DNA of 20,000 nt. It comes from Chiloscyllium plagiosum (taxonomy: Eukaryota). Below are positions 2,769-19,856 of this stretch, piece after piece. The translations under genes and the position numbers were made by a program. The notes beneath the pieces were generated by a model, which saw only the letters and a list, made by a program, of their open reading frames with translations, searched no databases and had not been told where the DNA came from. Location of the stretch: NCBI RefSeq assembly GCF_004010195.1, contig NC_057749.1:13185018-13205017 (forward strand), given 5' to 3'. Numbering within the stretch: the stretch's first letter is position 1; each line of letters opens with the position of its first letter.

Positions 2769-3859
2769 ACAATAGACAATAGGTGCAGGAGTAGGCCATT
2801 CTGCCCTTCGAGCCTGCACCACCATTCAATATGATCATGGCTGATCATCCTTAATCAGTATCCTGTTCCTGCCTTATCTCCATAACCCTTGATTCCACAA
2901 TCCTTGATAGCCCTATCCAATTCTTTCTTAAATGAATCCAGAGTCTGGGCCTCCACTGCTCTCTGGGGCAGAGCATTCCACACAGCCACCACTCTCTGGG
3001 TGAAGAAGTTTCTCCTCATCTCTGTCCTAAATGGTCTACCCCGTATTTTTAAGCTGTGTCCTCTGGTTTGGCACTCACCCATCAGTGGAAACATGTTTCC
3101 TGCCGCCAGAGTGTCCAATCCTTTAATAATCTTATATGTCTCAATCAGATCCCCTCTCAGTCTTCTAAACTCAAGGGTATACAAGCCCAGTCGCTCCAGT
3201 CTTTCAATGTAAGGTAATCCCGCCATTCCAGGAATTGACCTCGTGAACCAACGCTGCATTTCCTCAATAGCCAGAATGTCTTTCCTCAAATTTGGAGACC
3301 AGAACTGCACACAGTACTCCAGGTGTGGTCTCACCAGGGCCCTGTACAGCTGCAGAAGAACCTCTTTGCTTCTATACTCAATCCCTCTTGTTATGAAGGC
3401 CAGCATGCTATTAGCCTTTTACACTACCTGCTGTACTTGCATGCTTACCTTCATTGACTGATGTACAAGAACACCCAGATCTCTCTGTACTGCCCCTTTA
3501 CCAAAATTGATTCCATTGAGGTCGTAACCTGCCTTCCTGTTCTTGCCACCAAAGTGGATAACCATACATTTATCCACATTAAACTGCATCTGCCATGCAT
3601 CTGCCCAGTCACCTAACTTGTCCAGGTCACCCTGTAATCTCCTAACATCCTCATCACATTTCACCCTGCCACCCAGCTTAGTATCATCAGCAAATTTGCT
3701 AATGTTATTACTAACACCATCTTTTATATCATTAACATATATTGTAAAATGCTGCGGTCCCAGTACTGATCCCCGCGGTACCCCACTGGTCACTGCCTGC
3801 CATTCCAAAATGGAGCCGTTTATCACTACTCTTTGTTTCCTATCAGCCAACCAACTGAT
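2769..3859 (-). mobile_element. Young 5'-truncated CR1 LINE (C-terminal part of ORF2 reverse transcriptase plus 3' UTR)
   Basis: Translation WLADRKQRVVING..SGVPRGSVLGP..SKFADDTKLGG..WQMQFNVDKC..RPHLEYCVQFWSP..RNFFTQRVV. One in-frame TAA at 3419-3421. TCTATTG tail repeats. Candidate TSD TGTTAG at 2763-2768 and 3860-3865. Confidence 0.95.
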
Positions 3860-4025
3860 TGTTAGTGCAAATAGTGATAAATGGGCACACACCTTGACTG
3901 TAACTGGGTAATTTGCACCAATGTAAGAATGCTTTAATTGTTCCTCATCGCAAGTGCATCTCACTTGCACAGTCGCTCTATGCTGAAACTGTTCCTCTAA
4001 AGTGGTTCCTGCTGTATTCCAACAG

Positions 4026-4166
4026 GTGAACAGTCGCGAGGTCGTGGCCATTAAGTGTGTGAGTAAAAAAAGTTTGAACAAAGCCTCGGTGGAGAACCTG
4101 CTGACTGAGATCGAAATCTTGAAGACGGTCAGGCATCCTCATATTGTGCAGCTGAAGGATTTTCAA
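4026..4166 (+). CDS. ULK3: ULK3 serine/threonine kinase, coding exon 2 (141 nt, phase 0/0)
   Basis: cag|GTG...CAA|gtatgt. Encodes [47 protein letters not shown], nearly identical to vertebrate ULK3 as recalled (VAIK lysine, alphaC glutamate). Confidence 0.97.
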
Positions 4167-4727
4167 GTATGTATGAGCAGAGTCTGAAAGTGGATATCTT
4201 TATAAAACTAACAGGGCTGGATAAGTAACTTCACTCATCAACACAGGGATTCCATCACCTTTCCTCTGAGCTTCTCTCATGAGTGGCCTTAACATTGCAG
4301 AGGTTGTTTGACTTGCTGAATATTGACAGCTTGTTTCTATCTGATTTCCAGTGGCATTTTGTTTCTCATGTATGTGTGTGAGAAAGGCAGTCGGTGTGTC
4401 TGACAGTGTCAATGTACCTTTGTCTGTCTGACTTGGCTGTTTTGTCTGTGTGTGTCAGTGTGTTCATGTGTTTTGGCTGTGAATATGGCGCTCTTTCTCT
4501 CGTGCGTGCGCACACCCCTTTGCTGCAATCTTGAGGTTATAACAAGAGGAATAGATAGAGGATGTGATGTTTTTGGATTTCCAGGAAGCTATTGCTGAAG
4601 TCCCACATATTAGAAGCAAGTGTGTAAGATCGAAGCACATGGAATGGGGTGAAGTAGCAACAGGGATTGGGAATTGGTTAGCAGGTAGGGAACTGAGTGG
4701 GAATAAATAAGGGTGGGTTTTGGAGTG

Positions 4728-5163
4728 ATTTGATTTATTACCATCATGTGTACCAAGGTACAGTGAAAAGTATTGTCTTTTGTGCTTTACAGGCAGATCA
4801 CACGATACAAGTGCATTAGGTAACAGAACAGAGTAAAGGATACAATGTTACAGTCACAGACAAGGTGCAGAGAGAGATTAACATTAAAGAGGACCATTCA
4901 AAAGTCTGATAACAGCGGGGAAGAAGCTGTTCCTGAATTGATCCATACGTGTATACAAACTTTTATATCTTCTGCCTGACAGAAAAGGGTGGCAGAGAGT
5001 ATACCCAAGGTGCGAGGGGTCTTTGATTATGTTGGTTGCTTCTGCAAGGCAGTGGGAAATATAATAGATGAAGTGAATGGATGGGAAGCTGGTTTGCTTA
5101 GTGGACTGGGCTGTGTTCACAGCTCTCTGTAGTTTCTTTTGGTCTTACAAAAAGCAGCGGAAG
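4728..5163 (-). mobile_element. Rex1/Babar-clade LINE 3' fragment nested in CR1
   Basis: Minus ORF IIKDPSHLGYTL..FLSGRRYKSL..FRNSFFPAVIRLLN is the typical Rex1/Babar C-terminus. Tail AATAAATCAAATC. TSD TGGAGTG at 4721-4727 and 5164-5170. Confidence 0.8.
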
Positions 5164-5908
5164 TGGAGTGGGAAGCAGTGATCGTGGATTATTACAGGGA
5201 TCAGTGATTGTTTCCAGCTATTCACTATATAATTTAATGAATTGCATGAAGGTATTAAATTTGGTATTTCCAAGTTTGCTGATGATATAAAACTAGAAGG
5301 AATTTGAGAGATGAGGCAGAAGTGAAGAGGCTTCAAGGTAACTTCAACAAATTGGGTGAGTGGGCAGATGCAGTACGTTGCAGCTAAGTGTGAAGTAATC
5401 CACTTTGGTATGGGAAAGAGAATAAGCATATTATTTAAACAATGATTGACACTTCTCAGTCTATCACTGTAAAAACGAGAACCAGTACACCAGTCAGTGC
5501 AAGCAGACATGCAGATGGAACAAGCAGTTAGGAAGGTCAATAAAATGTTGGCCTTCTTTGCCAAGGAGTTCAGGAGCAAGGAAGTTGTCATACAGCTGTT
5601 CAGGGCTTAGGTAGAACCATGCCTGGAGTATTGTGTGCCATTATAGTCGGCATGGACTGGTTGGACCAAAGGATCTGTTTCTCTGCTGTATGACTCTTAG
5701 TAAAATATATAAGATTCGGACAGGGCTGCACAAAAGGAATACATGGATGATGTTCCCTTGATTGGGAGCTGGAGTGGGGGAATTTCTGGAACAAGGGGTC
5801 ATAGTCTCGGATTATGGGATATTTGAGACTGAAATAATAATTGTTTTTCACTCAGAAGGTAGTGAACTGTTATTTTACCCCACAGAAGGCAATGGAGGGA
5901 AAAGAACA

Positions 5909-6229
5909 GCAGCACTGTGGCTCAGTGGTTAGCACTGCTGCCATACAGCAGCAAGGACTGGGGTTCAATTCCACCCTTGGATGAACATCTGTGTGGAGTT
6001 CACACATTCTCCCCATGTCTGCGTGGGTTTCCTCTGGGTGCTCTGATTTCCTCCCACAGTCCAAAGATGTGCAGGTTATGTGGATTGACCATGCTAAATG
6101 GCCCAGTGTTCAGAGATGTGCAGGTAAATGTGGGGTTACACGAATAAGATGAGAGGCTCTTTGGAAGTTTGGTACAGACTCAACAGGCCAAGTGGCCTCT
6201 TTCCGTACTGTAGGGGATTCTATTCTATT
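5909..6229 (+). mobile_element. HE1-like V-SINE nested in CR1
   Basis: A box TGGCTCAGTGG, B box GGTTCAATTCC, V-domain TGTGGAGTT..CACATTCTCCCC..GGGTTTCCTC..CTCCCACAGTCCAAAGATGTGCAGG, LINE-derived tail. Confidence 0.9.
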
Positions 6230-6404
6230 ACTCACTGAATATATTTAAGAAATAAATTGATTCCGAAATACAAAAGGTGTCAAGGGATATGAGAAGGGAG
6301 CAGGGGGATTGCATTGAGATAGGAAATCAGCCGTGATCATATTGAATGGTAGAGCAGGCTCAGTGGACCAGAAAGTCTCTTGTTGCTTCTATTTTGTATG
6401 CCTT

Positions 6405-6610
6405 TGTCTTGTCTGCACCGTCATCTGTGCATGTGTGTTACTGCCTGTGTGTCTTGGCTGTGTTGTGTGTGTGTGTGTGTTTTAGAGTCTTATGGTTGTG
6501 CTGTTGTCTTGATTGTGTTTATGTCAGTATCTTGGCTATGGTTTTGTCAGTGTGTGACTCTCTCTTGGTTGTGGTAGTGGCTGTGTGTCAGTCTCTTATC
6601 TGTGTGATTT
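6405..6610. repeat. TG-rich low-complexity tract with a (TG)n core at about 6465-6480
   Basis: Directly visible. Similar composition at 4370-4480 on the other side of the CR1 insertion. Confidence 0.7.
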
Positions 6611-7118
6611 TTTTTTTTGAGCAGCAGTATTGCCTTTCCTACTATCTGGTCTGACCTGTGTTGGGGTTCCTTGTTGAAATGGGGCGAGGGAAATTGGAGA
6701 ATGGCAGATTCTATCCCTGTCTCCCAACCACCACGTACACTCAGGAAAGAGTGACTGGGTGGCCCTTGATAAGTGAGGGCAGTGGCCATGACCGATGGGA
6801 CACCGAAACCAATATTAATGCCCTGGCCTATTCCTTGACCAACAATCAGAGACTTGAGTCGCCAACTTGGGTTGGGAGTGTTCCTGGAGGTTTTACTATG
6901 TGACCGCCTTCAGTACCTGGCCACTTGGAAGAGGAACAGACTCTTTATAACCTATTGATGAAATAGGGTTTTTTAACCCCTCCAACCTCCAATATTTTTA
7001 CAATCAATAAACAAAATACTTCAGTATTCCAGCTAGAAAGATGTAGGTAATAGGTGGTAATCATCCACTGAAGTAATCTCTCATTGTGAATAATGGAATC
7101 GGAATGATCTCCTTGGTG

Positions 7119-7388
7119 AGCATTATGGTGGCTCAGTGGTTAGCACTGCCGCCTTGCAGCACCAAGGACCCGGGTTCAATTCTAGCCTTGGGCAACAATC
7201 TGCATATTCTCCCAGTGTCTGCGTCGGTTTCTTCCCATGGTCCAAAGATGCGTGGGTTGGCCATGCTAAATGCAAGGTTACAGAGATAGGGTTGCGGGAG
7301 TGGGTCTACGTGGGCTGCACTTCGGAAGGTTGATGCAGACTTGATGGGATGAACAGCCTCTTTCCAAACTGTAGGGATTCTATGATTC
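7119..7388 (+). mobile_element. HE1-like V-SINE with internal deletions
   Basis: GGTGGCTCAGTGGTTAGCACTGC..GGGTTCAATTC..CTGTAGGGATTCTATGATTC. Confidence 0.9.
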
Positions 7389-7586
7389 TCTGTCACTGCC
7401 CTGTGTGAGTCAGAGGGTTCCAGACCACAACCAGGGGGCCCTGCCCTTCCCCGTGGAATAGTTTGGGAATATTCCGGGTAGCCAGACATTCCAGTTTGTG
7501 GAGGTGTGGGGTTCGGTGAGGGGGAGATATTATAGGCTTCTGGTTGCAGTCGTTTCTAACGTATGGTTTGACCTTGACCCTAACAG

Positions 7587-7707
7587 TGGGACAGCGAGAA
7601 CATTTACCTGATCATGGAATTCTGTGCTGGCGGCGATCTCTCCCACTTCATCCGCACTCGCAGGGCGCTTCCCGAAGGAGTGGCCAGGCGCTTTCTGCAG
7701 CAGCTGG
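7587..7707 (+). CDS. ULK3: ULK3 coding exon 3 (121 nt, phase 0/1)
   Basis: taacag|TGG...CTG G|gtaag. Encodes [40 protein letters not shown]. Confidence 0.97.
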
Positions 7708-7799
7708 GTAAGAGGCCGCGGGAGCTGGGTTGCCATATTAACTTTCCCATCCACTGCATGTTCCAAAGTGCTTCATGGGCAATGAGAGCATCAGCTTCC

Positions 7800-8652
7800 C
7801 CCTGGCTCGGAGGGTAACATTCTCATTGGAATTTGAAGATTGAGAGTTCAACTCCCACTCCAGAGGTGTGAGCAGAAAACTGCAGCTGACACTATCATGC
7901 CAGCACTGAGGGAGTGCTGCACTGTTGAAGGAGCCATCTTTCTAAACACTCACCTCCAGTAGAGGTAAAAGATCCCACCAAACCGTGAGAAGAGCTGTCC
8001 ACGAAAAAGGTTTATATTTCTCCAACACAGGGTGGCGCAGTGGCTCAGTGGTTAGTACTGCTGCCTTACAGCACCAGGGACCCAGTTTCGATTCCACCCT
8101 TCGGCGACTGTGAAGTTTGCACATTCTCCCCATGTCTGCACAGACCGCGAGCAGGTGCTCTGCTTTCTTCCCACCATCCAAAGAAGTGCAGGCTAAGTGG
8201 ATTAGCCATGGGAAATGCAGGGTTACAAGGGTCCGGGGGTGTGTCTGGGTGGGATGCTCTTTGGAGGGTCTGTGTGACCTCGATGGGCCAAATAGCCTGC
8301 TTCCACACTTTAGGAATTCTATGATCCATCCCTCAATCAATCTGACTACAATAGAAGTTCACGTTATCCCCATATTGTTGTATGTGGGGTCTTGCTGTGT
8401 GCATATTGATGTTTCCTACATTACAATACTGACTTCAAAATGGTAGTTCCACCGGATTGATGTTCCCATGAAGGTCCTACCCTCCGGTGGAACCACCACC
8501 AATCACCTCTTTTGCCTAAGAGAGCAGCCCAATGGTCCTCTGGGACTGTGGTGACTTTGCTGTAACCTTTACACACCAAAAGCACCTCATTTGCTGTAAA
8601 GCACTTTGGGATGTGAAAGTTGCTATATAAATGCAATTATTTCTTCTTTCTT
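7800..8652 (+). mobile_element. Deu-type (SacSINE1-like) SINE broken by two younger insertions (8030-8325 and about 8441-8570)
   Basis: GTTCAACTCCCACTCCAGAG..CTGAGGGAGTGCTGCACTGTTGAAGG..GTAAAAGATCCCA, then ATCCCTCAA..TTGCTGTGTGCA..TTTCCTACATTACAA, then GCTGTAAAGCACTTTGGGA..GCTATATAAATGCAA. Confidence 0.75.
8030..8325 (+). mobile_element. HE1-like V-SINE
   Basis: Same head, V-domain and tail as the other copies. Confidence 0.9.
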
Positions 8653-8760
8653 TTGGGAATGGCCATTAGATCCACATTCTGTTTGTACAGAGATTGGGCT
8701 GCCAATTATGTTAATGGAAGGATAAACATTAGCCTGGGATCCCTCAGAATGACCCTAGTC

Positions 8761-8864
8761 ACTGAAACGCTTCACAGGAGGCTCCCAAGCACTGAGGATG
8801 TCACCTAGACAGGGGGCAAAACGTCTGCAGCAGACATTCCCAGCTCGGCGAACAGAACCACAAC
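8761..8864 (+). mobile_element. 104-bp Penelope-type insertion carrying a minimal hammerhead-like motif
   Basis: Perfect 13-bp direct repeats AATGACCCTAGTC at 8748-8760 and 8865-8877. Internal GCA-CTGAGGA-T-stem-AAAAC-GTC-TGC. Confidence 0.8.
8789..8828 (+). ncRNA. Type I minimal hammerhead ribozyme relic (G12 to A, probably inactive)
   Basis: Helix I GCA(8789-91)/TGC(8826-28). Core CTGAGGA 8792-98. Helix II GTCACCT/AGGGGGC with AGAC loop. AAAA in place of GAAA. Palindromic helix III ACGT. GTC cleavage triplet ending at 8825. Confidence 0.65.
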
Positions 8865-9177
8865 AATGACCCTAGTCCTATTTGGAATAGTGCGATCTCC
8901 TTTACCTGCCTGAGCATTTAATGCTGCATTGCCTCTGACAGTGCAGCACTGTGCATTACTTCAGCTTTTCTGTTCTCGTTTAAGGCTTCTAGCAGTATAC
9001 TGTATGCACCCAAATCAAGATTCATCTAAGATCTTTGAGCTCTGTGGGAGCCCCTGCATTAACCTGTGAACTTTACAAAGGTGTTATTGTTAATGCTAGA
9101 AGTTACGAAAATGTTTACGGACTCCATGGATCAGCTGCTTTTTTCTTTCTTTCTTTCTCCCTCTCCTCCCCTCTCAG

Positions 9178-9282
9178 CATCAGCTCTCCAGTACCTCCAC
9201 GAGCGAAACATCTCTCACCTCGATCTGAAACCACAGAACATTCTGGTCAGTTCCCGGAGCACCCCTCACCTCAAACTTGCTG
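9178..9282 (+). CDS. ULK3: ULK3 coding exon 4 (105 nt, phase 1/1), catalytic loop
   Basis: Long pyrimidine tract, ctcag|CA...GCT G|gtgagt. Encodes (A)[34 protein letters not shown]. Confidence 0.97.
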
Positions 9283-9439
9283 GTGAGTTAACTCGGACTC
9301 TCCTCTATCCTACAGCCCTCCCCCTACTCCCCACCCCCCAACGCTTTATTTCCTAAATGGCAATGAAGGTCGGAGTTGAAAGCGAAGAAGGACCTGCGTT
9401 TATATAGCACCTTCTGCCATCTCACAATGCCCAAGTTCT

Positions 9440-10010: not shown

Positions 10011-10221
10011 GTTAACCTCTTCGATGGGTCATTTGTCACAGTATCTCCTTAGGTGGCCCGCTGTGTGATAACCCTCCAGGGAAACAACATTGAAGGCACT
10101 ATGTAAATGCAATCGCGTGTTCTTACGCCGCATCCGTGCAGCGTTTGTGTCAAGAACGAAAACTGCTCTCCCCTTTTTGGAAGGTCCTTGTTCCAAATCT
10201 GGTTCCTTGTGTCTGCTGCAG

Positions 10222-10365
10222 ATTTTGGCTTTGCTCAGCACATGTCCCCTTGGGACGAGAAGCACATTCTGCGTGGATCCCCACTCTACATGGCACCGGA
10301 GATGGTGTGTCGCCAACAGTACGATGCTCGCGTGGATCTGTGGTCAGTGGGCGTCATCCTGTATG
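10222..10365 (+). CDS. ULK3: ULK3 coding exon 5 (144 nt, phase 1/1), activation segment
   Basis: tgcag|AT...TAT G|gtgagt. Encodes (D)[47 protein letters not shown]. Confidence 0.98.
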
Positions 10366-10819
10366 GTGAGTCCGCGATGTCGGCTGGCACTTCCTGGGGA
10401 AGGGGGAATTCTGGTGAGGTCCCTTCACCCCAGAGGGTCCTCCGTTTAAAAATATCCGAGTACAACAGGAATAGAGATTCCTGGCTTCAGCTTTACACAG
10501 AGACTCATTACAGAAAAGGTGTGATTGAACGAAAGAGGGAACTGGGGAGCACCACAGCTATTGAAGGGAAGATTTTCAGACGGGGGGCACTGAGGGGAGA
10601 TTCGATTGAGATGTACAAACTTGAGAGGAGTCTGGGATAAAAGTTGCCATAGTTCTGACCAGATCATCCATCTTCTTTCTCTCTCATTACCGACAACTGT
10701 TGGTGATTTAAGCTGAGGGTCATCATGCCTCGGGTGAGGGGAGAGGTTGAGAAGGAGAGTCGTTCGAGGTAACCTCAGCTGATCTGGTATTATGAAGTGG
10801 ATGCCTATTTAACAGCAGT

Positions 10820-10916
10820 CAGTGAGTACTGCAGATGCTGGAGATTAGAGTCAAGATTAGAGTAGGTCAGCAGGTCAGGCAGCATCCGAGGAGCAGCAAA
10901 AGCCCATCATCAATGA
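10820..10916 (-). mobile_element. Penelope-like terminal repeat fragment with deleted hammerhead
   Basis: Minus strand reads TTGATGATGGGCTTTTGC-TGCTCCTCGGATGCTGCCTGACCTGCTG..CTCCAGCATCTGCAGTACTCAC. The GAAAC segment is missing. Confidence 0.6.
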
Positions 10917-12504: not shown

Positions 12505-12699
12505 GTGGGTGACCGTGGACGGCACCAGGGTAATGTGTATTTTCACAGGCTGGGGAAGTGGCAACAATAACTTGCTTTTACGTAGTACTATAAAACATCC
12601 CCTGGGGGTAATTCCCAGGAGAGTCATCAGTCAAAAGTTTGAGGGAGGTGGGGTGGGAAACATAAGGAGGTGAGTTCAAAGGAGTAAATGAAAAATGCT

Positions 12700-12796
12700 C
12701 CAGAAGTTGCTGGAGAAGCTCAGCAGGTCTGGCAGCATCTTTGGAGAGAGAGAAACTGTGTTCGTGTTTCAGGTCCAGTGTGACTTCATGTAGAAG
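12700..12796 (-). mobile_element. Penelope-like terminal repeat fragment with degenerate hammerhead
   Basis: Minus strand GTCACACTGGACCTGAAAC..CAGTTTCTCTCTCTCCAAAGATGCTGCCAGACCTGCTGAGCTTCTCCAGCAACTTCTG. Homologous to 1398-1515. Confidence 0.6.
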
Positions 12797-13389
12797 AATC
12801 TTCAGTTCAGCACAGTTGCTATCAGATCTGCCGGATTTGAAGAATGTGGGGGGTGTGATGTTGAGGGTGGGGGCGGGGGTCTTCCAGGCATCTGAAGGTA
12901 CAGCGAAGGGTGGGGGTGTCTTGCTGGGAATTGGGGCTGTCCGAGAGGGTGAGGTCATGACAGGAGGTCAGGAAAGTCTGTGGAGGAGGCTACAGAACGG
13001 GGATAAGGAGTGCACTGAACATGAAGGCGAGAATCCAAGTAGCAACTTCTTGGTGAGTTTGGGAGGAGTGAGTGGGTTGTAAGGAAAATAGGAACTGCAA
13101 TATCTAATTTGGATGATTAACAGGGTTTTCAGAATCCACTTTCCTGAGATGGGATATGGAGTTTCAAGTCGACTAGTTGAATCTGCTTTGTTTGTGTCTC
13201 CCAGCCATGTCGATGTGTCCTGGATTGTGGTCATCGCTGGCTGGGGCAGTTTTTATTACCCATCCCTAATCTCCCCAGAGATGGTGGTGATGAGCCACTG
13301 CCTTAAACTGCTGTAGTCCTTGGGCTGCAGGTGCACCCACACAGTGCTGTTAAGGGGCAAGAGCCAGGATTTTGACCCAGTGACATTGA

Positions 13390-19295: not shown

Positions 19296-19474
19296 TTTGA
19301 ACTGTTTTAAAACTTACCGTTTTGTCCTGAATTGATACAACTTTGAAACTGCAAACACAATATTTAGTGACAATGCGCAATACGTTGTTGCACATCTCCT
19401 CCCGCAGTCTCTCTGCTCCAGGCTAATTCCTTGACGTTTTTCTGAATGTTTACTGTTTCCTGGTTTGGTTTCAG

Positions 19475-19630
19475 CTTCCTCCAGGCACCCGGGTCTCAAG
19501 AGAATGCAGGGATTTACTGCTCCGGCTGCTAGAGAGGGATCCGGAACGGAGAATAACCTTTGAGGAATTCTTTACGCACCCGTTTGTGGACCTGGATCAC
19601 ATGCCGAGTGCGGAGAGCCTGGAGAAGGCG
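19475..19630 (+). CDS. ULK3: ULK3 coding exon 7 (156 nt, phase 0/0), end of kinase domain
   Basis: tttcag|CTT...GCG|gtatgt. Encodes [52 protein letters not shown]. Confidence 0.96.
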
Positions 19631-19856
19631 GTATGTGAATGCACTGGGGCTGTTCTTGGCTGCTTCACGTTAACACCATATTTCCACGGTTTAAAGGGAA
19701 CAGGGTGTTCACCTGTCACAGCCCCGCAGTGTGACTCCTTCAGAGTAACCTCTGATACCTCAGCAGAGTTTACCTTCAGTTCTGAGTCTCCCTGTGCAGG
19801 CGTTTCATTTTAGAATTCACGTACTTGTTTTCAAAAGCTTCTGTGACCCTACCTCG

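What the first reader, a model, noticed from the sequence alone, without database searches (positions are those of the whole stretch)
8748..8877. 104-bp mobile insertion built around a minimal hammerhead ribozyme motif, with a perfect 13-bp TSD
Seen: AATGACCCTAGTC is duplicated exactly (8748-8760, 8865-8877) around a non-coding insert with no poly-A tail or TIRs. The insert folds as a type I hammerhead: GCA/UGC helix I, CUGAGGA core plus one extra U, a 7-position helix II with one mismatch and one G-U, then AAAAC-GUC. Helix III is the loop-less palindrome ACGU. Established: Penelope-like elements and retrozymes carry such minimal hammerheads, thought to cleave as dimers, and G12 is catalytically essential. 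Inference: this is a very short Penelope-derived insertion or a member of a non-autonomous ribozyme-bearing family. G12 to A (8818) looks like CpG decay and would stop it cutting the ULK3 pre-mRNA, in which it lies in sense orientation.
Basis: partly seen in the sequence, partly recalled or inferred. Interest (0 to 1): 0.7.

Follow-up and report, generated by a model that had tools for sequence, protein, structure and literature searches.

The report
Truncated Penelope retroelement with dead hammerhead
The 104-base insert in an intron of the ULK3 gene is an ordinary, heavily shortened copy of a Penelope-like jumping gene that carries that family's usual tiny hammerhead ribozyme motif, here disabled by a common mutation.

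Summary
The 13-bp repeat is exact at 8748-8760 and 8865-8877, and 0 of 200 shuffles reach two matches.

The insert is not a separate family. It is the last 104 nt of a high-copy Penelope-like element (PLE). An exact 34-nt motif pattern matches 4485 places in the 3.56-Gb genome and 0 in the reversed control. Other copies continue upstream for variable distances into RT and GIY-YIG-like coding sequence. They end either at the same AC-rich point as the window copy or 39 nt further on, at an optional "tail". They carry 9-14-bp target duplications and often an inverted partner. This matches published PLE biology (PMC4209133, PMC11167929).

G12 is G in 4041 of the 4485 matches and A in 444, so 8818 is a CpG-to-CpA decay.

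The insert lies in sense orientation in a ULK3 intron. A related species shares it, and no empty site was found.

Rfam models do not detect the motif, and cleavage is untested. The finding is ordinary and of low interest.

The parts
8748..8760 (.). Left copy of the 13-bp target-site duplication (AATGACCCTAGTC)
   Evidence: Comparable 9-14-bp flanking repeats were found in 10 of 30 sampled family loci.
8761..8864 (+). Severely 5'-truncated, tail-less copy of a Penelope-like element (its last 104 nt up to the inner 3' end)
   Evidence: 91-95% identity over positions 1-104 to 41 other scored genomic places, out of 834 first-look candidates. Other copies extend upstream by variable lengths.
8761..8808 (+). 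Remnant of the 3' end of the element's ORF: the last 15 codons plus stop TAG at 8806-8808, in the GIY-YIG frame
   Evidence: The frame of L043:6539-7033 ends ...ITEALHRRLLSTEDVT* at the homologous TAG inside the hammerhead loop.
8789..8828 (+). Minimal type I hammerhead motif: helix I 8789-8791/8826-8828; core 8792-8798; extra U 8799; helix II 8800-8806/8811-8817; loop 8807-8810; GAAA box 8818-8821; ACGU palindrome 8821-8824; expected cut after 8825
   Evidence: Sequence read. The features match the PLE min-HHR description in PMC4209133. No Rfam hit.
8818..8818 (+). G12-to-A substitution (CpG to CpA) in the GAAA box
   Evidence: G in 4041 and A in 444 of 4485 exact-pattern family copies. In the family contigs of run X1, 693724 of 788109 depth units read G at this place. 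CpG columns are non-majority in 44 of 614 cells, against 97 of 5672 elsewhere.
8798..8864 (+). Start of the next unit's ORF (ATG 8798-8800 at the start of stem II, first 22 codons), ending in the AC-rich inner reverse-transcription start region (about 8850-8864)
   Evidence: In L044 (reverse complement) the frame opening at this ATG reads through the tail into the PLE N-terminal region. The arrangement is as described for Poseidon_Ac in PMC11167929. 14 of 29 other sampled copies end at this same point.
8865..8877 (.). Right copy of the 13-bp target-site duplication
7593..7706 (+). Upstream ULK3 kinase-domain exon (approximate limits of the Pkinase match, profile positions 70-107)
   Evidence: The kinase exons are colinear on the + strand. 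Two other exons of the series match ULK3 structure 6fdy best, at 1.2e-27 and 6.9e-22.
9180..9278 (+). Downstream ULK3 kinase-domain exon (approximate limits of the Pkinase match, profile positions 109-139)

Best explanation
The insert is a dead, 104-nt, 5'-truncated copy of a high-copy Penelope-like retroelement (PLE) of this genome. Earlier scan notes call the genome a shark's; I did not verify that.

Proposed mechanism:
1. The element's endonuclease made staggered nicks 13 bp apart in the ULK3 intron. This step is inferred.
2. Its reverse transcriptase started cDNA synthesis on the element RNA at the inner of its two internal start sites, in the AC-rich stretch ending ...CCACAAC(A), 67 nt past the ORF's ATG. 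This gives a 'tail-less' 3' end. That this is a recurrent 3' end is shown; that it is a reverse-transcription start is inferred from the Poseidon_Ac work.
3. Synthesis stopped or switched template after about 104 nt and joined the target at a 2-nt microhomology (TC). This step is inferred.

The copied segment happens to be the unit junction of the element. It holds the stop codon of one ORF, the start codon of the next, and the family's minimal type I hammerhead, which has no helix III loop and is thought to act only as a dimer or with the element's protein.

In this copy the motif later lost G12 by CpG decay at 8818. It also has no partner motif on the same strand anywhere in the 20-kb window. 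It is most likely inert intronic debris. It predates the split from a related species that shares it.
For: - Copy number: the exact 34-nt hammerhead pattern matches 4485 genomic places and 0 in the reversed control.
- Attachment to a full element: 28 of 29 other sampled copies (L021 is masked upstream) share at least the last 10-12 nt before insert position 1; most share all 60 nt shown. Their homology starts at scattered points between locus positions 874 and 1498, that is 2 to 626 nt upstream of position 1; a few of these starts are set by masked N runs.
- Upstream ORF pieces: RVT_1 scores E 1.7e-7, above the Pfam cut-off. The YKIPC..C...YIGQTGR stretch gives GIY-YIG at E 0.021. In the Atlas, 18 of 30 listed hits fall in the GIY-YIG set, best score 0.95.
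- Unit junction: the frame from the ATG in stem II reads on into PLE N-terminal sequence in L044.
- Two 3' ends: 14 of 29 copies end at the window's end point and 15 of 29 carry a further 39-nt tail. PMC11167929 (parts 1-2 read) reports two internal RT start sites in an AC-rich region early in the ORF, with an optional 30-40-bp tail between them.
- Target duplications: exact 9-14-bp flanking repeats in 10 of 30 loci.
- Inverted pairs: 16 of 30 loci have a second, partial or complete copy within the 3.1-kb locus. In at least 13 it is an inverted partner with tails outward. The first 100 pattern matches include 11 such pairs. PMC4209133 reports the same arrangement.
- Helix II covaries between sister families in this genome: C-G / U-G / U-A at one pair, and wholly different GGGC/GCCC, GAGC/GCTC and GAGTC/GACTC helices.
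- G12 is G in 4041 of 4485 pattern matches.
- Host gene and orientation.
Against: - No Rfam hammerhead model matches the window copy, or 18 loci with an intact GAAA box, even at E up to 10.
- Folding energies of the motif are not better than shuffles: z = -0.43 for the window copy, -0.64 and -0.10 for intact copies.
- There is no compensatory change within the family. Helix I is only 3 bp.
- Conservation inside this young family could equally reflect the overlapping coding frames.
- GIY-YIG scores below Pfam's cut-off (15.5 against 22.6 bits), and the ORF has no PDB sequence match.
- No empty site was found. The immediate flank is unique in the genome, and the related organism B also has the 3' junction.
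- The 30 main loci were chosen by similarity to the window copy, so proportions drawn from them are biased.
- Cleavage activity, and the reverse-transcription steps, were not tested for this element.
Confidence: 0.88

Rival explanations
1. It is a member of a distinct non-autonomous, ribozyme-bearing short retroelement family (retrozyme-like or SINE-like) with defined ends. PLE enzymes would mobilise it in trans.
For: - Sister families in the same genome include very many mini-copies of about 95-135 nt. Pattern CTGAHGAAGN{8,20}CGAAACGTC gives 100,928 matches against 1 in the control. By my reading, 10 of 30 sampled copies begin right at the hammerhead's 5' edge.
- A 2026 preprint (10.64898/2026.07.22.740005; abstract and passages read) derives animal retrozymes from PLE pLTRs.
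Against: - In the window's own family, none of the 26 other sampled copies whose upstream DNA is readable starts within 10 nt of insert position 1. L006, L021 and L024 are masked by N upstream.
- Homology continues upstream into GIY-YIG-like and RT coding sequence.
- There is no same-strand pair closer than about 3.4 kb among the first 100 pattern matches, so no tandem arrays were seen.
Confidence: 0.04
2. It is a solo pseudo-LTR. A longer partial-tandem PLE insertion (a 104-nt repeat at both ends of an ORF) later lost its interior by recombination between the two repeats. That would leave one repeat flanked by the original duplication.
For: - The end product would be indistinguishable from what is seen.
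- Direct pairs of the segment do exist, for example L044 at 4434-4537 and 6420-6522.
Against: - Direct pairs are rare: 0 among the first 100 pattern matches.
- A 104-nt repeat is a short substrate for recombination.
- Variable 5' truncation alone explains the copy.
- Organism B already shows the short form's 3' junction, but the contigs do not span the insert, so this does not exclude the rival.
Confidence: 0.05
3. The hammerhead resemblance is incidental. The motif is conserved only because it overlaps the stop and start of the element's ORFs, and it has no RNA-level function.
For: - No Rfam hit.
- Fold z-scores are not significant.
- The family is too young to show covariation.
- Published in-vitro activity of metazoan min-HHRs is low (PMC4209133).
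- Ribozyme mutants did not affect insertion in vitro (PMC11167929).
Against: - Sister families keep both catalytic boxes, the extra nucleotide, G10.1-C11.1 and the ACGU palindrome, while helix II changes sequence with pairing preserved.
- The pattern used there did not demand pairing.
- Protein-assisted cleavage with C3/G8 rescue is reported for the Anolis element.
Confidence: 0.1
4. The copy has been co-opted by the host as a regulatory element of the ULK3 intron. Its presence in two species would then reflect selection.
For: - It is present in organism A and in the related organism B.
- It lies in sense orientation.
Against: - The flanks differ by only about 2-3% between A and B, so sharing is expected for a neutral older insertion.
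- G12 is lost, and 7 of 104 positions differ from the family column majority.
- The same window holds two more decayed PLE fragments.
- Intronic PLEs are reported as abundant in a shark genome (10.1101/443036, passages read).
Confidence: 0.01

Closest known systems
Minimal hammerhead ribozymes (min-HHRs) of metazoan Penelope-like elements (Cervera & de la Pena 2014, PMC4209133; parts 1-2 of the text read)
   Same: - Type I motif with CUGANGA and GAAA boxes.
- No helix III loop, with palindromic 15.2-16.2.
- An unpaired nucleotide between A9 and G10.1, and a G10.1-C11.1 pair.
- A long helix II (7 positions) and a short helix I.
- Thousands of copies per genome, mostly single motifs in truncated PLEs or inverted pairs 100-700 bp apart.
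   Different: - Helix I here is 3 bp, against the 4-5 bp described as typical.
- This copy has A at G12.
- The text I read does not list cartilaginous fishes among the taxa. Its supplementary figures were not seen.
Poseidon_Ac (PAc) of Anolis carolinensis (Frangieh et al. 2024, PMC11167929; parts 1-2 read)
   Same: - The ORF's ATG sits at the start of hammerhead stem II, with the cut site about 26-28 nt downstream.
- Genomic copies end at two alternative points in an AC-rich region early in the ORF. An optional 30-40-bp tail lies between them; here the points are +67 and +106 from the ATG, and the tail is 39 nt.
   Different: - In PAc the outer site is 111-118 nt into the ORF.
- Which PLE clade this element belongs to was not determined here, and no PAc sequence was compared.
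- The reported ATT nick preference is only hinted at here: 3 of 10 duplications start with AAT, a fourth (L022) if its first C is assigned to the element.
Animal non-LTR retrozymes (PMC7229834, search listing only; 10.64898/2026.07.22.740005, abstract and passages read)
   Same: Short non-coding hammerhead-bearing sequences related to PLE pLTRs, found in non-mammalian vertebrates.
   Different: Retrozymes are tandem arrays with defined units that give circular RNAs. The window copy is solitary, its family is attached to a coding element, and no tandem array was seen.
5'-truncated LINE insertions made by target-primed reverse transcription (established knowledge, recalled)
   Same: Variable 5' truncation, target-site duplication, and microhomology at the 5' junction.
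   Different: - No poly-A or 3'-terminal initiation: the 3' end is an internal site of the template.
- Frequent inverted twin copies.
- A GIY-YIG-type rather than an APE or REL endonuclease.

Membership tests
Penelope-like element (copy of) | Reverse transcriptase domain in longer copies of the same family | tested here: met
   RVT_1 E 1.7e-7, 31.6 bits (cut-off 29.6) on L043:5668-6078, upstream of and contiguous with the 104-nt segment.
Penelope-like element (copy of) | C-terminal GIY-YIG endonuclease domain | tested here: inconclusive
   Pfam GIY-YIG gives E 0.021 and 15.5 bits, below the 22.6 cut-off, aligned to profile positions 3-37 over the YKIPC..C..YIGQTGR stretch. In the Atlas, 18 of 30 listed hits fall in the GIY-YIG set, best score 0.95 with 202 shared features. 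No PDB sequence hit.
Penelope-like element (copy of) | Two alternative 3' ends differing by an optional 30-40-bp tail | tested here: met
   Of 29 other loci, 14 end at ...CCACAAC(A) and 15 carry a 39-nt extension ending ...CAAACTTTGA. The feature is described in PMC11167929.
Penelope-like element (copy of) | Variable 5' truncation with target-site duplications of variable length | tested here: met
   Homology starts are scattered over about 630 nt. Exact 9-14-bp flanking repeats occur in 10 of 30 loci by a crude search.
Penelope-like element (copy of) | Tandem (pLTR-ORF-pLTR) or inverted partial-copy organisation | tested here: met
   16 of 30 loci have a second copy nearby; in at least 13 it is inverted, tails outward. 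There are 11 such pairs among the first 100 pattern matches, and one direct pair with read-through ORF in L044.
PLE-type minimal hammerhead (min-HHR) | CUGANGA box | tested here: met
   CTGAGGA at 8792-8798.
PLE-type minimal hammerhead (min-HHR) | GAAA box (G12 A13 A14 A15.1) | tested here: not met
   The window has AAAA at 8818-8821. The family has GAAA in 4041 of 4485 exact-pattern copies. The window copy is therefore a decayed member.
PLE-type minimal hammerhead (min-HHR) | Unpaired nucleotide between A9 and G10.1, and a G10.1-C11.1 pair | tested here: met
   T at 8799; G 8800 pairs with C 8817. The same is seen in sister families, with U or A as the extra base.
PLE-type minimal hammerhead (min-HHR) | Helix II of about 6-8 bp, supported by covariation | tested here: met
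   Helix II has 7 positions with one A.G mismatch, or 6 bp with a bulged A in the MFE of intact copies. There is no covariation within the family. Between families there are compensatory changes: GTCACCT/AGGGGAC against GTTACCT/AGGTAAC, and GGGC/GCCC against GAGC/GCTC and GAGTC/GACTC. These were read by eye.
PLE-type minimal hammerhead (min-HHR) | No helix III loop; palindromic 15.1-16.1 stretch allowing a dimer; GUC cleavage triplet | tested here: met
   ACGT at 8821-8824; the GTC triplet ends at 8825.
PLE-type minimal hammerhead (min-HHR) | Helix I of 4-5 bp | tested here: inconclusive
   Only GCA/TGC (3 bp) pairs next to the core, in the window and in the family. A 2-bp helix I is reported for the D. 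virilis variant.
PLE-type minimal hammerhead (min-HHR) | Self-cleavage as a dimer or with the element's protein | not testable with these tools
   This needs transcription and cleavage assays.
Rfam hammerhead families (Hammerhead_1 and relatives) | Match to the curated covariance model | tested here: not met
   No hammerhead hit at gathering score on the window. None at E up to 10 on 8600-9000, nor on 18 loci with an intact GAAA box. A likely reason, which I did not check, is that these models include a helix III hairpin, which min-HHRs lack.
Non-LTR retrozyme | Tandem arrays of a short non-coding hammerhead unit | tested here: not met
   The window copy is solitary. No same-strand neighbours appear among the first 100 pattern matches, and family copies are attached to coding sequence.

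The most novel reading that the evidence does not exclude
The roughly 100-nt size may not be an accident.

PLE reverse transcription starts inside the first 70-110 nt of the ORF, and the ORF's ATG lies in the hammerhead. A single-unit element transcript could therefore only yield a cDNA of about 100-135 nt, running from that start site to the RNA's 5' end.

Hammerhead-bearing mini-insertions would then be the default product of PLE activity and a class of their own. Sister families fit this picture. They give 100,928 motif matches in this genome, and by my reading about a third of 30 sampled copies begin right at the hammerhead's 5' edge.

The window copy would be such a run-off product of its own family rather than a random truncation.
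Probability: 0.07. Interest if true: 0.45.

Novelty: new member of a known kind. Interest (0 to 1): 0.14.

Why it matters
It matters little in itself. It is one more fossil copy of a known kind of retroelement carrying a known kind of ribozyme motif, in a genome where such fragments are extremely common.

It does make a clean worked example of three things:
- PLE copies ending at the published internal reverse-transcription start.
- The stop of one ORF, the start of the next and the hammerhead all packed into about 40 nt.
- CpG decay disabling about 10% of the motifs.

The by-product may deserve its own look: more than 100,000 minimal-hammerhead motif matches in one vertebrate genome, many of them in uniform mini-copies.

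Tried and rejected
- Rfam: the gathering scan of the window, and E<=10 scans of 8600-9000 and of 18 family loci, gave no hammerhead hit. The miRNA-like hits are inverted-repeat artefacts of paired copies.
I used stop-free ORFs of at least 38 aa instead.
- Paralogous empty site: the flank 8600-8760 gives only 6 genomic matches. The other 5 cover only its first 57 nt, a repeat tail, so there is no paralogue to compare.
- Empty site in reads: laying contigs of two organism-A and two organism-B runs on 8400-9200 showed no joint skipping 8761-8877. Contigs break inside the high-copy insert, so none spans it.
- No RNA holder was listed by the look-up of sequencing runs. This says nothing about expression.
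Proportions therefore rest on the similarity-selected sample and on the first 100 places listed by position.
- PDB sequence search with the GIY-YIG-like ORF gave no hit.
- Thermodynamic folding gave no support: z-scores are not significant.
- Literature: the terms Penelope/shark/ribozyme gave 2 papers, neither about shark PLE hammerheads.
- No structure prediction, complex prediction or large protein search was run, as none was needed.

Full report
**Observation**

The exact 13-mer AATGACCCTAGTC occurs at 8748-8760 and 8865-8877. Allowing one mismatch, these are the only two matches in the 20-kb window, and 0 of 200 dinucleotide-preserving shuffles reach two.

**What the insert belongs to**

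The window lies in a 3.56-Gb assembly. The 104 nt give 834 first-look candidates there. Of the 42 scored matches, 41 are other places, at 91-95% identity, nearly all over the full 104 nt.

I oriented 29 other loci on the insert. In 28 of them (L021 is masked upstream) at least the last 10-12 nt before insert position 1 are shared, and in most all 60 nt shown are shared. The window has unrelated intron sequence there. The point where homology begins differs from locus to locus, from 2 to about 630 nt upstream. The window copy is therefore one 5'-truncated copy among many, not a unit with fixed ends.

The upstream part is itself highly repeated (1794 candidates). It holds ORF pieces with a reverse-transcriptase match (RVT_1, E 1.7e-7, above Pfam's cut-off). 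It also holds a stretch reading ...VVYKIPCKDCTKHYIGQTGRQLTIRIHEH.... That stretch gives a sub-threshold GIY-YIG match (E 0.021, 15.5 against 22.6 bits). Its nearest clusters in the protein atlas are eukaryotic GIY-YIG clusters (best score 0.95; 18 of 30 listed hits in that set). It has no PDB sequence match.

RT followed by a GIY-YIG-like domain is the Penelope-like element (PLE) architecture.

**Anatomy of the copied segment**

- The GIY-YIG frame runs into the 104-nt segment and stops at the TAG inside the hammerhead loop (window 8806-8808; L043 ORF ends ...STEDVT*).
- An ATG at the start of stem II (window 8798-8800) opens another frame. In the direct pair of L044 this frame reads on through the segment and beyond, into typical PLE N-terminal sequence (...IIILPADKGRM...).
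- The segment is therefore the junction between two tandem units. The stop of one ORF, the start of the next and the hammerhead are superimposed.
- Frangieh et al. [quoted passage not shown]

**3' ends**

Of the 29 other loci, 14 end where the window copy ends (...GAACAGAACCACAAC, followed by A in all 30 loci). The other 15 continue for 39 nt to ...CAAACTTTGA before diverging.

The Anolis work reports that reverse transcription starts at two adjacent internal sites in an AC-rich region early in the ORF. It identifies the optional 30-40-bp 'tail' of genomic PLE copies as the sequence between them. Here the two ends lie 67 and 106 nt past the ATG. The window copy is a tail-less copy.

**Insertion signatures**

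- A crude search found exact flanking repeats of 9-14 bp in 10 of 30 loci, including the window's 13 bp. The other 20 gave only 3-7-bp matches. Many of those have nested repeats or badly estimated boundaries.
- 16 of 30 loci hold a second, partial or complete, copy nearby. In at least 13 of them it is inverted, with tails pointing outward.
- In several loci the target duplication flanks the whole inverted pair.
- Among the first 100 pattern matches listed by genome position there are 11 such inverted pairs and no same-strand pair.
- Cervera & de la Pena 2014 (PMC4209133, parts 1-2 read) report the same picture: mostly single motifs 'probably related to truncated PLEs', and pairs 100-700 bp apart on opposite strands.
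- Three of the ten duplications start with AAT, a fourth (L022) if its first C is assigned to the element. That is compatible with the reported ATT nick preference, but the sample is small.

**The hammerhead**

The exact pattern CTGAGGATGTCACCTAGACAGGGGRCRAAACGTC matches 4485 places and 0 in the reversed control. With G fixed at G12 it matches 4041. So 444 copies (9.9%) carry the same G-to-A change as the window.

In 64 other copies held in loci, CpG columns are non-majority in 44 of 614 cells, against 97 of 5672 elsewhere. Position 8818 is the G of a CpG.

The window copy differs from the column majority at 7 of 104 positions: 8763, 8767, 8816, 8818, 8830, 8833 and 8835. Five of these also stand out against the family's contigs in public runs.

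The motif has every hallmark that PMC4209133 lists for PLE min-HHRs: both boxes in the family, a nucleotide between A9 and G10.1, the G10.1-C11.1 pair, a long helix II, no loop 3 and palindromic 15.2-16.2. The exception is helix I, which is only 3 bp.

Within this young family there is no compensatory change. Between families in the same genome there is. The pattern CTGAHGANGN{12,20}CGAAACGTC does not demand pairing. It gives 2833 matches against 8 in the control. Among them, GTTACCT/AGGTAAC is a perfect 7-bp helix. It differs from GTCACCT/AGGGGAC by a C-G to U-A double change and by repair of the A.G mismatch. GAGTC/GACTC helices also occur. CTGAHGAAGN{8,20}CGAAACGTC gives 100,928 matches against 1, with GGGC/GCCC and GAGC/GCTC helices.

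Three results count against a naive reading:
- Rfam's hammerhead models find nothing, even on intact copies.
- Folding energies are no better than shuffles.
- Published in-vitro activity of such motifs is low or protein-dependent.

**Context**

Five ORFs on the + strand match consecutive parts of the protein-kinase profile in order: 3987-4184, 7584-7814, 9063-9353, 10107-10637 and 19427-19810. Two of them match the ULK3 structure 6fdy far better than ULK1 (1.2e-27 against 4e-11; 6.9e-22 against 3.8e-5). The insert lies between the exon parts at about 7593-7706 and 9180-9278, in the sense of the gene.

The window holds no other hammerhead-like motif on the + strand. It does hold two decayed fragments of the 100,000-match family on the minus strand. 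A lone min-HHR without G12 and without a partner is not expected to cut. No protective role of the mutation needs to be invoked, since a tenth of all copies have it.

**Age**

The unique flank has no paralogue. Contigs of two runs of a related organism B (two studies) cover 8403-8765 and 8843-9132, with about 2-3% differences. They cross the 3' junction, and no run shows a joint skipping the insert. The insertion therefore predates the split of A and B. No empty site was found.

**Comparison and verdict**

This is a PLE fragment with the PLE-type minimal hammerhead, as described in 2014. Its 3' end is explained by the 2024 internal-initiation work. Intronic PLE expansion is reported for a shark genome (10.1101/443036, passages read).

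'A distinct non-autonomous family' is not supported for this copy.

Earlier scan notes on the same genome call it a shark and report Penelope elements elsewhere in it. I confirmed the PLE presence but not the species.

Supplementary figures of PMC4209133 and PMC11167929, and those of the preprints, were not seen. They may already show cartilaginous-fish motifs or equivalent end maps.

Interest is low. The novelty class is a new member of a known kind.

Noticed in passing
Genome-wide; loci L052-L081 (motif near position 1500 of each): A sister minimal-hammerhead family, CTGA(A/T)GA-A-GGGC-loop-GCCC-GAAACGTC, gives 100,928 exact pattern matches against 1 in the reversed control. That is far more than the roughly 4,000 to 9,000 min-HHRs reported for coelacanth and Xenopus in PMC4209133. 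By my reading of 30 sampled copies: 10 begin right at the hammerhead's 5' edge, 8 are head-to-head inverted pairs joined there, and 3' ends come in short and tailed forms. These look like uniform mini-copies of about 95-135 nt.
   Followed up: partly
window 12690-12806 (- strand): A decayed fragment of that sister PLE family: a degenerate hammerhead followed by ...GATGCTGCCAGACCTGCTG..., antisense to ULK3.
   Followed up: partly
window 10830-10912 (- strand): Another fragment of the same sister family, with an internal deletion that removes the GAAA box and cut site (...TGATGATGGGCTTTTGC/TGCTCCTCGGATGCTGCCTGACCTGCTG...).
   Followed up: partly
window 3422-4138 (- strand): A 239-aa open frame with an RVT_1 match (E 2.2e-10). 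This is a different retroelement remnant, in the intron next to the first kinase exon seen.
   Followed up: no
window 8508-8657: A high-copy repeat just upstream of the insert (SINE-like tail ...GCTATATAAATGCAATTATTTCTTCTTTC). Contig depth rises to about 1000-2000 here, and 5 other genomic places match 8600-8657. The PLE copy landed about 90 nt downstream of it.
   Followed up: no
window 8441-8498: An inverted repeat with 16-nt arms, 94% complementary, 26 nt apart (TGGTAGTTCCACCGGA / TCCGGTGGAACCACCA). Its nature is not examined. Organism B contigs show a 10-nt deletion at 8417 and a replaced segment 8437-8587 nearby.
   Followed up: no
L001-L030 and the listing: Target-site duplications flank whole inverted pairs of the PLE 3' segment (for example L009, L010, L013, L018, L022, L023, L029). 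This fits one insertion event priming from both strands of a staggered break, in line with the reported top- and bottom-strand extension by the Anolis enzyme.
   Followed up: partly
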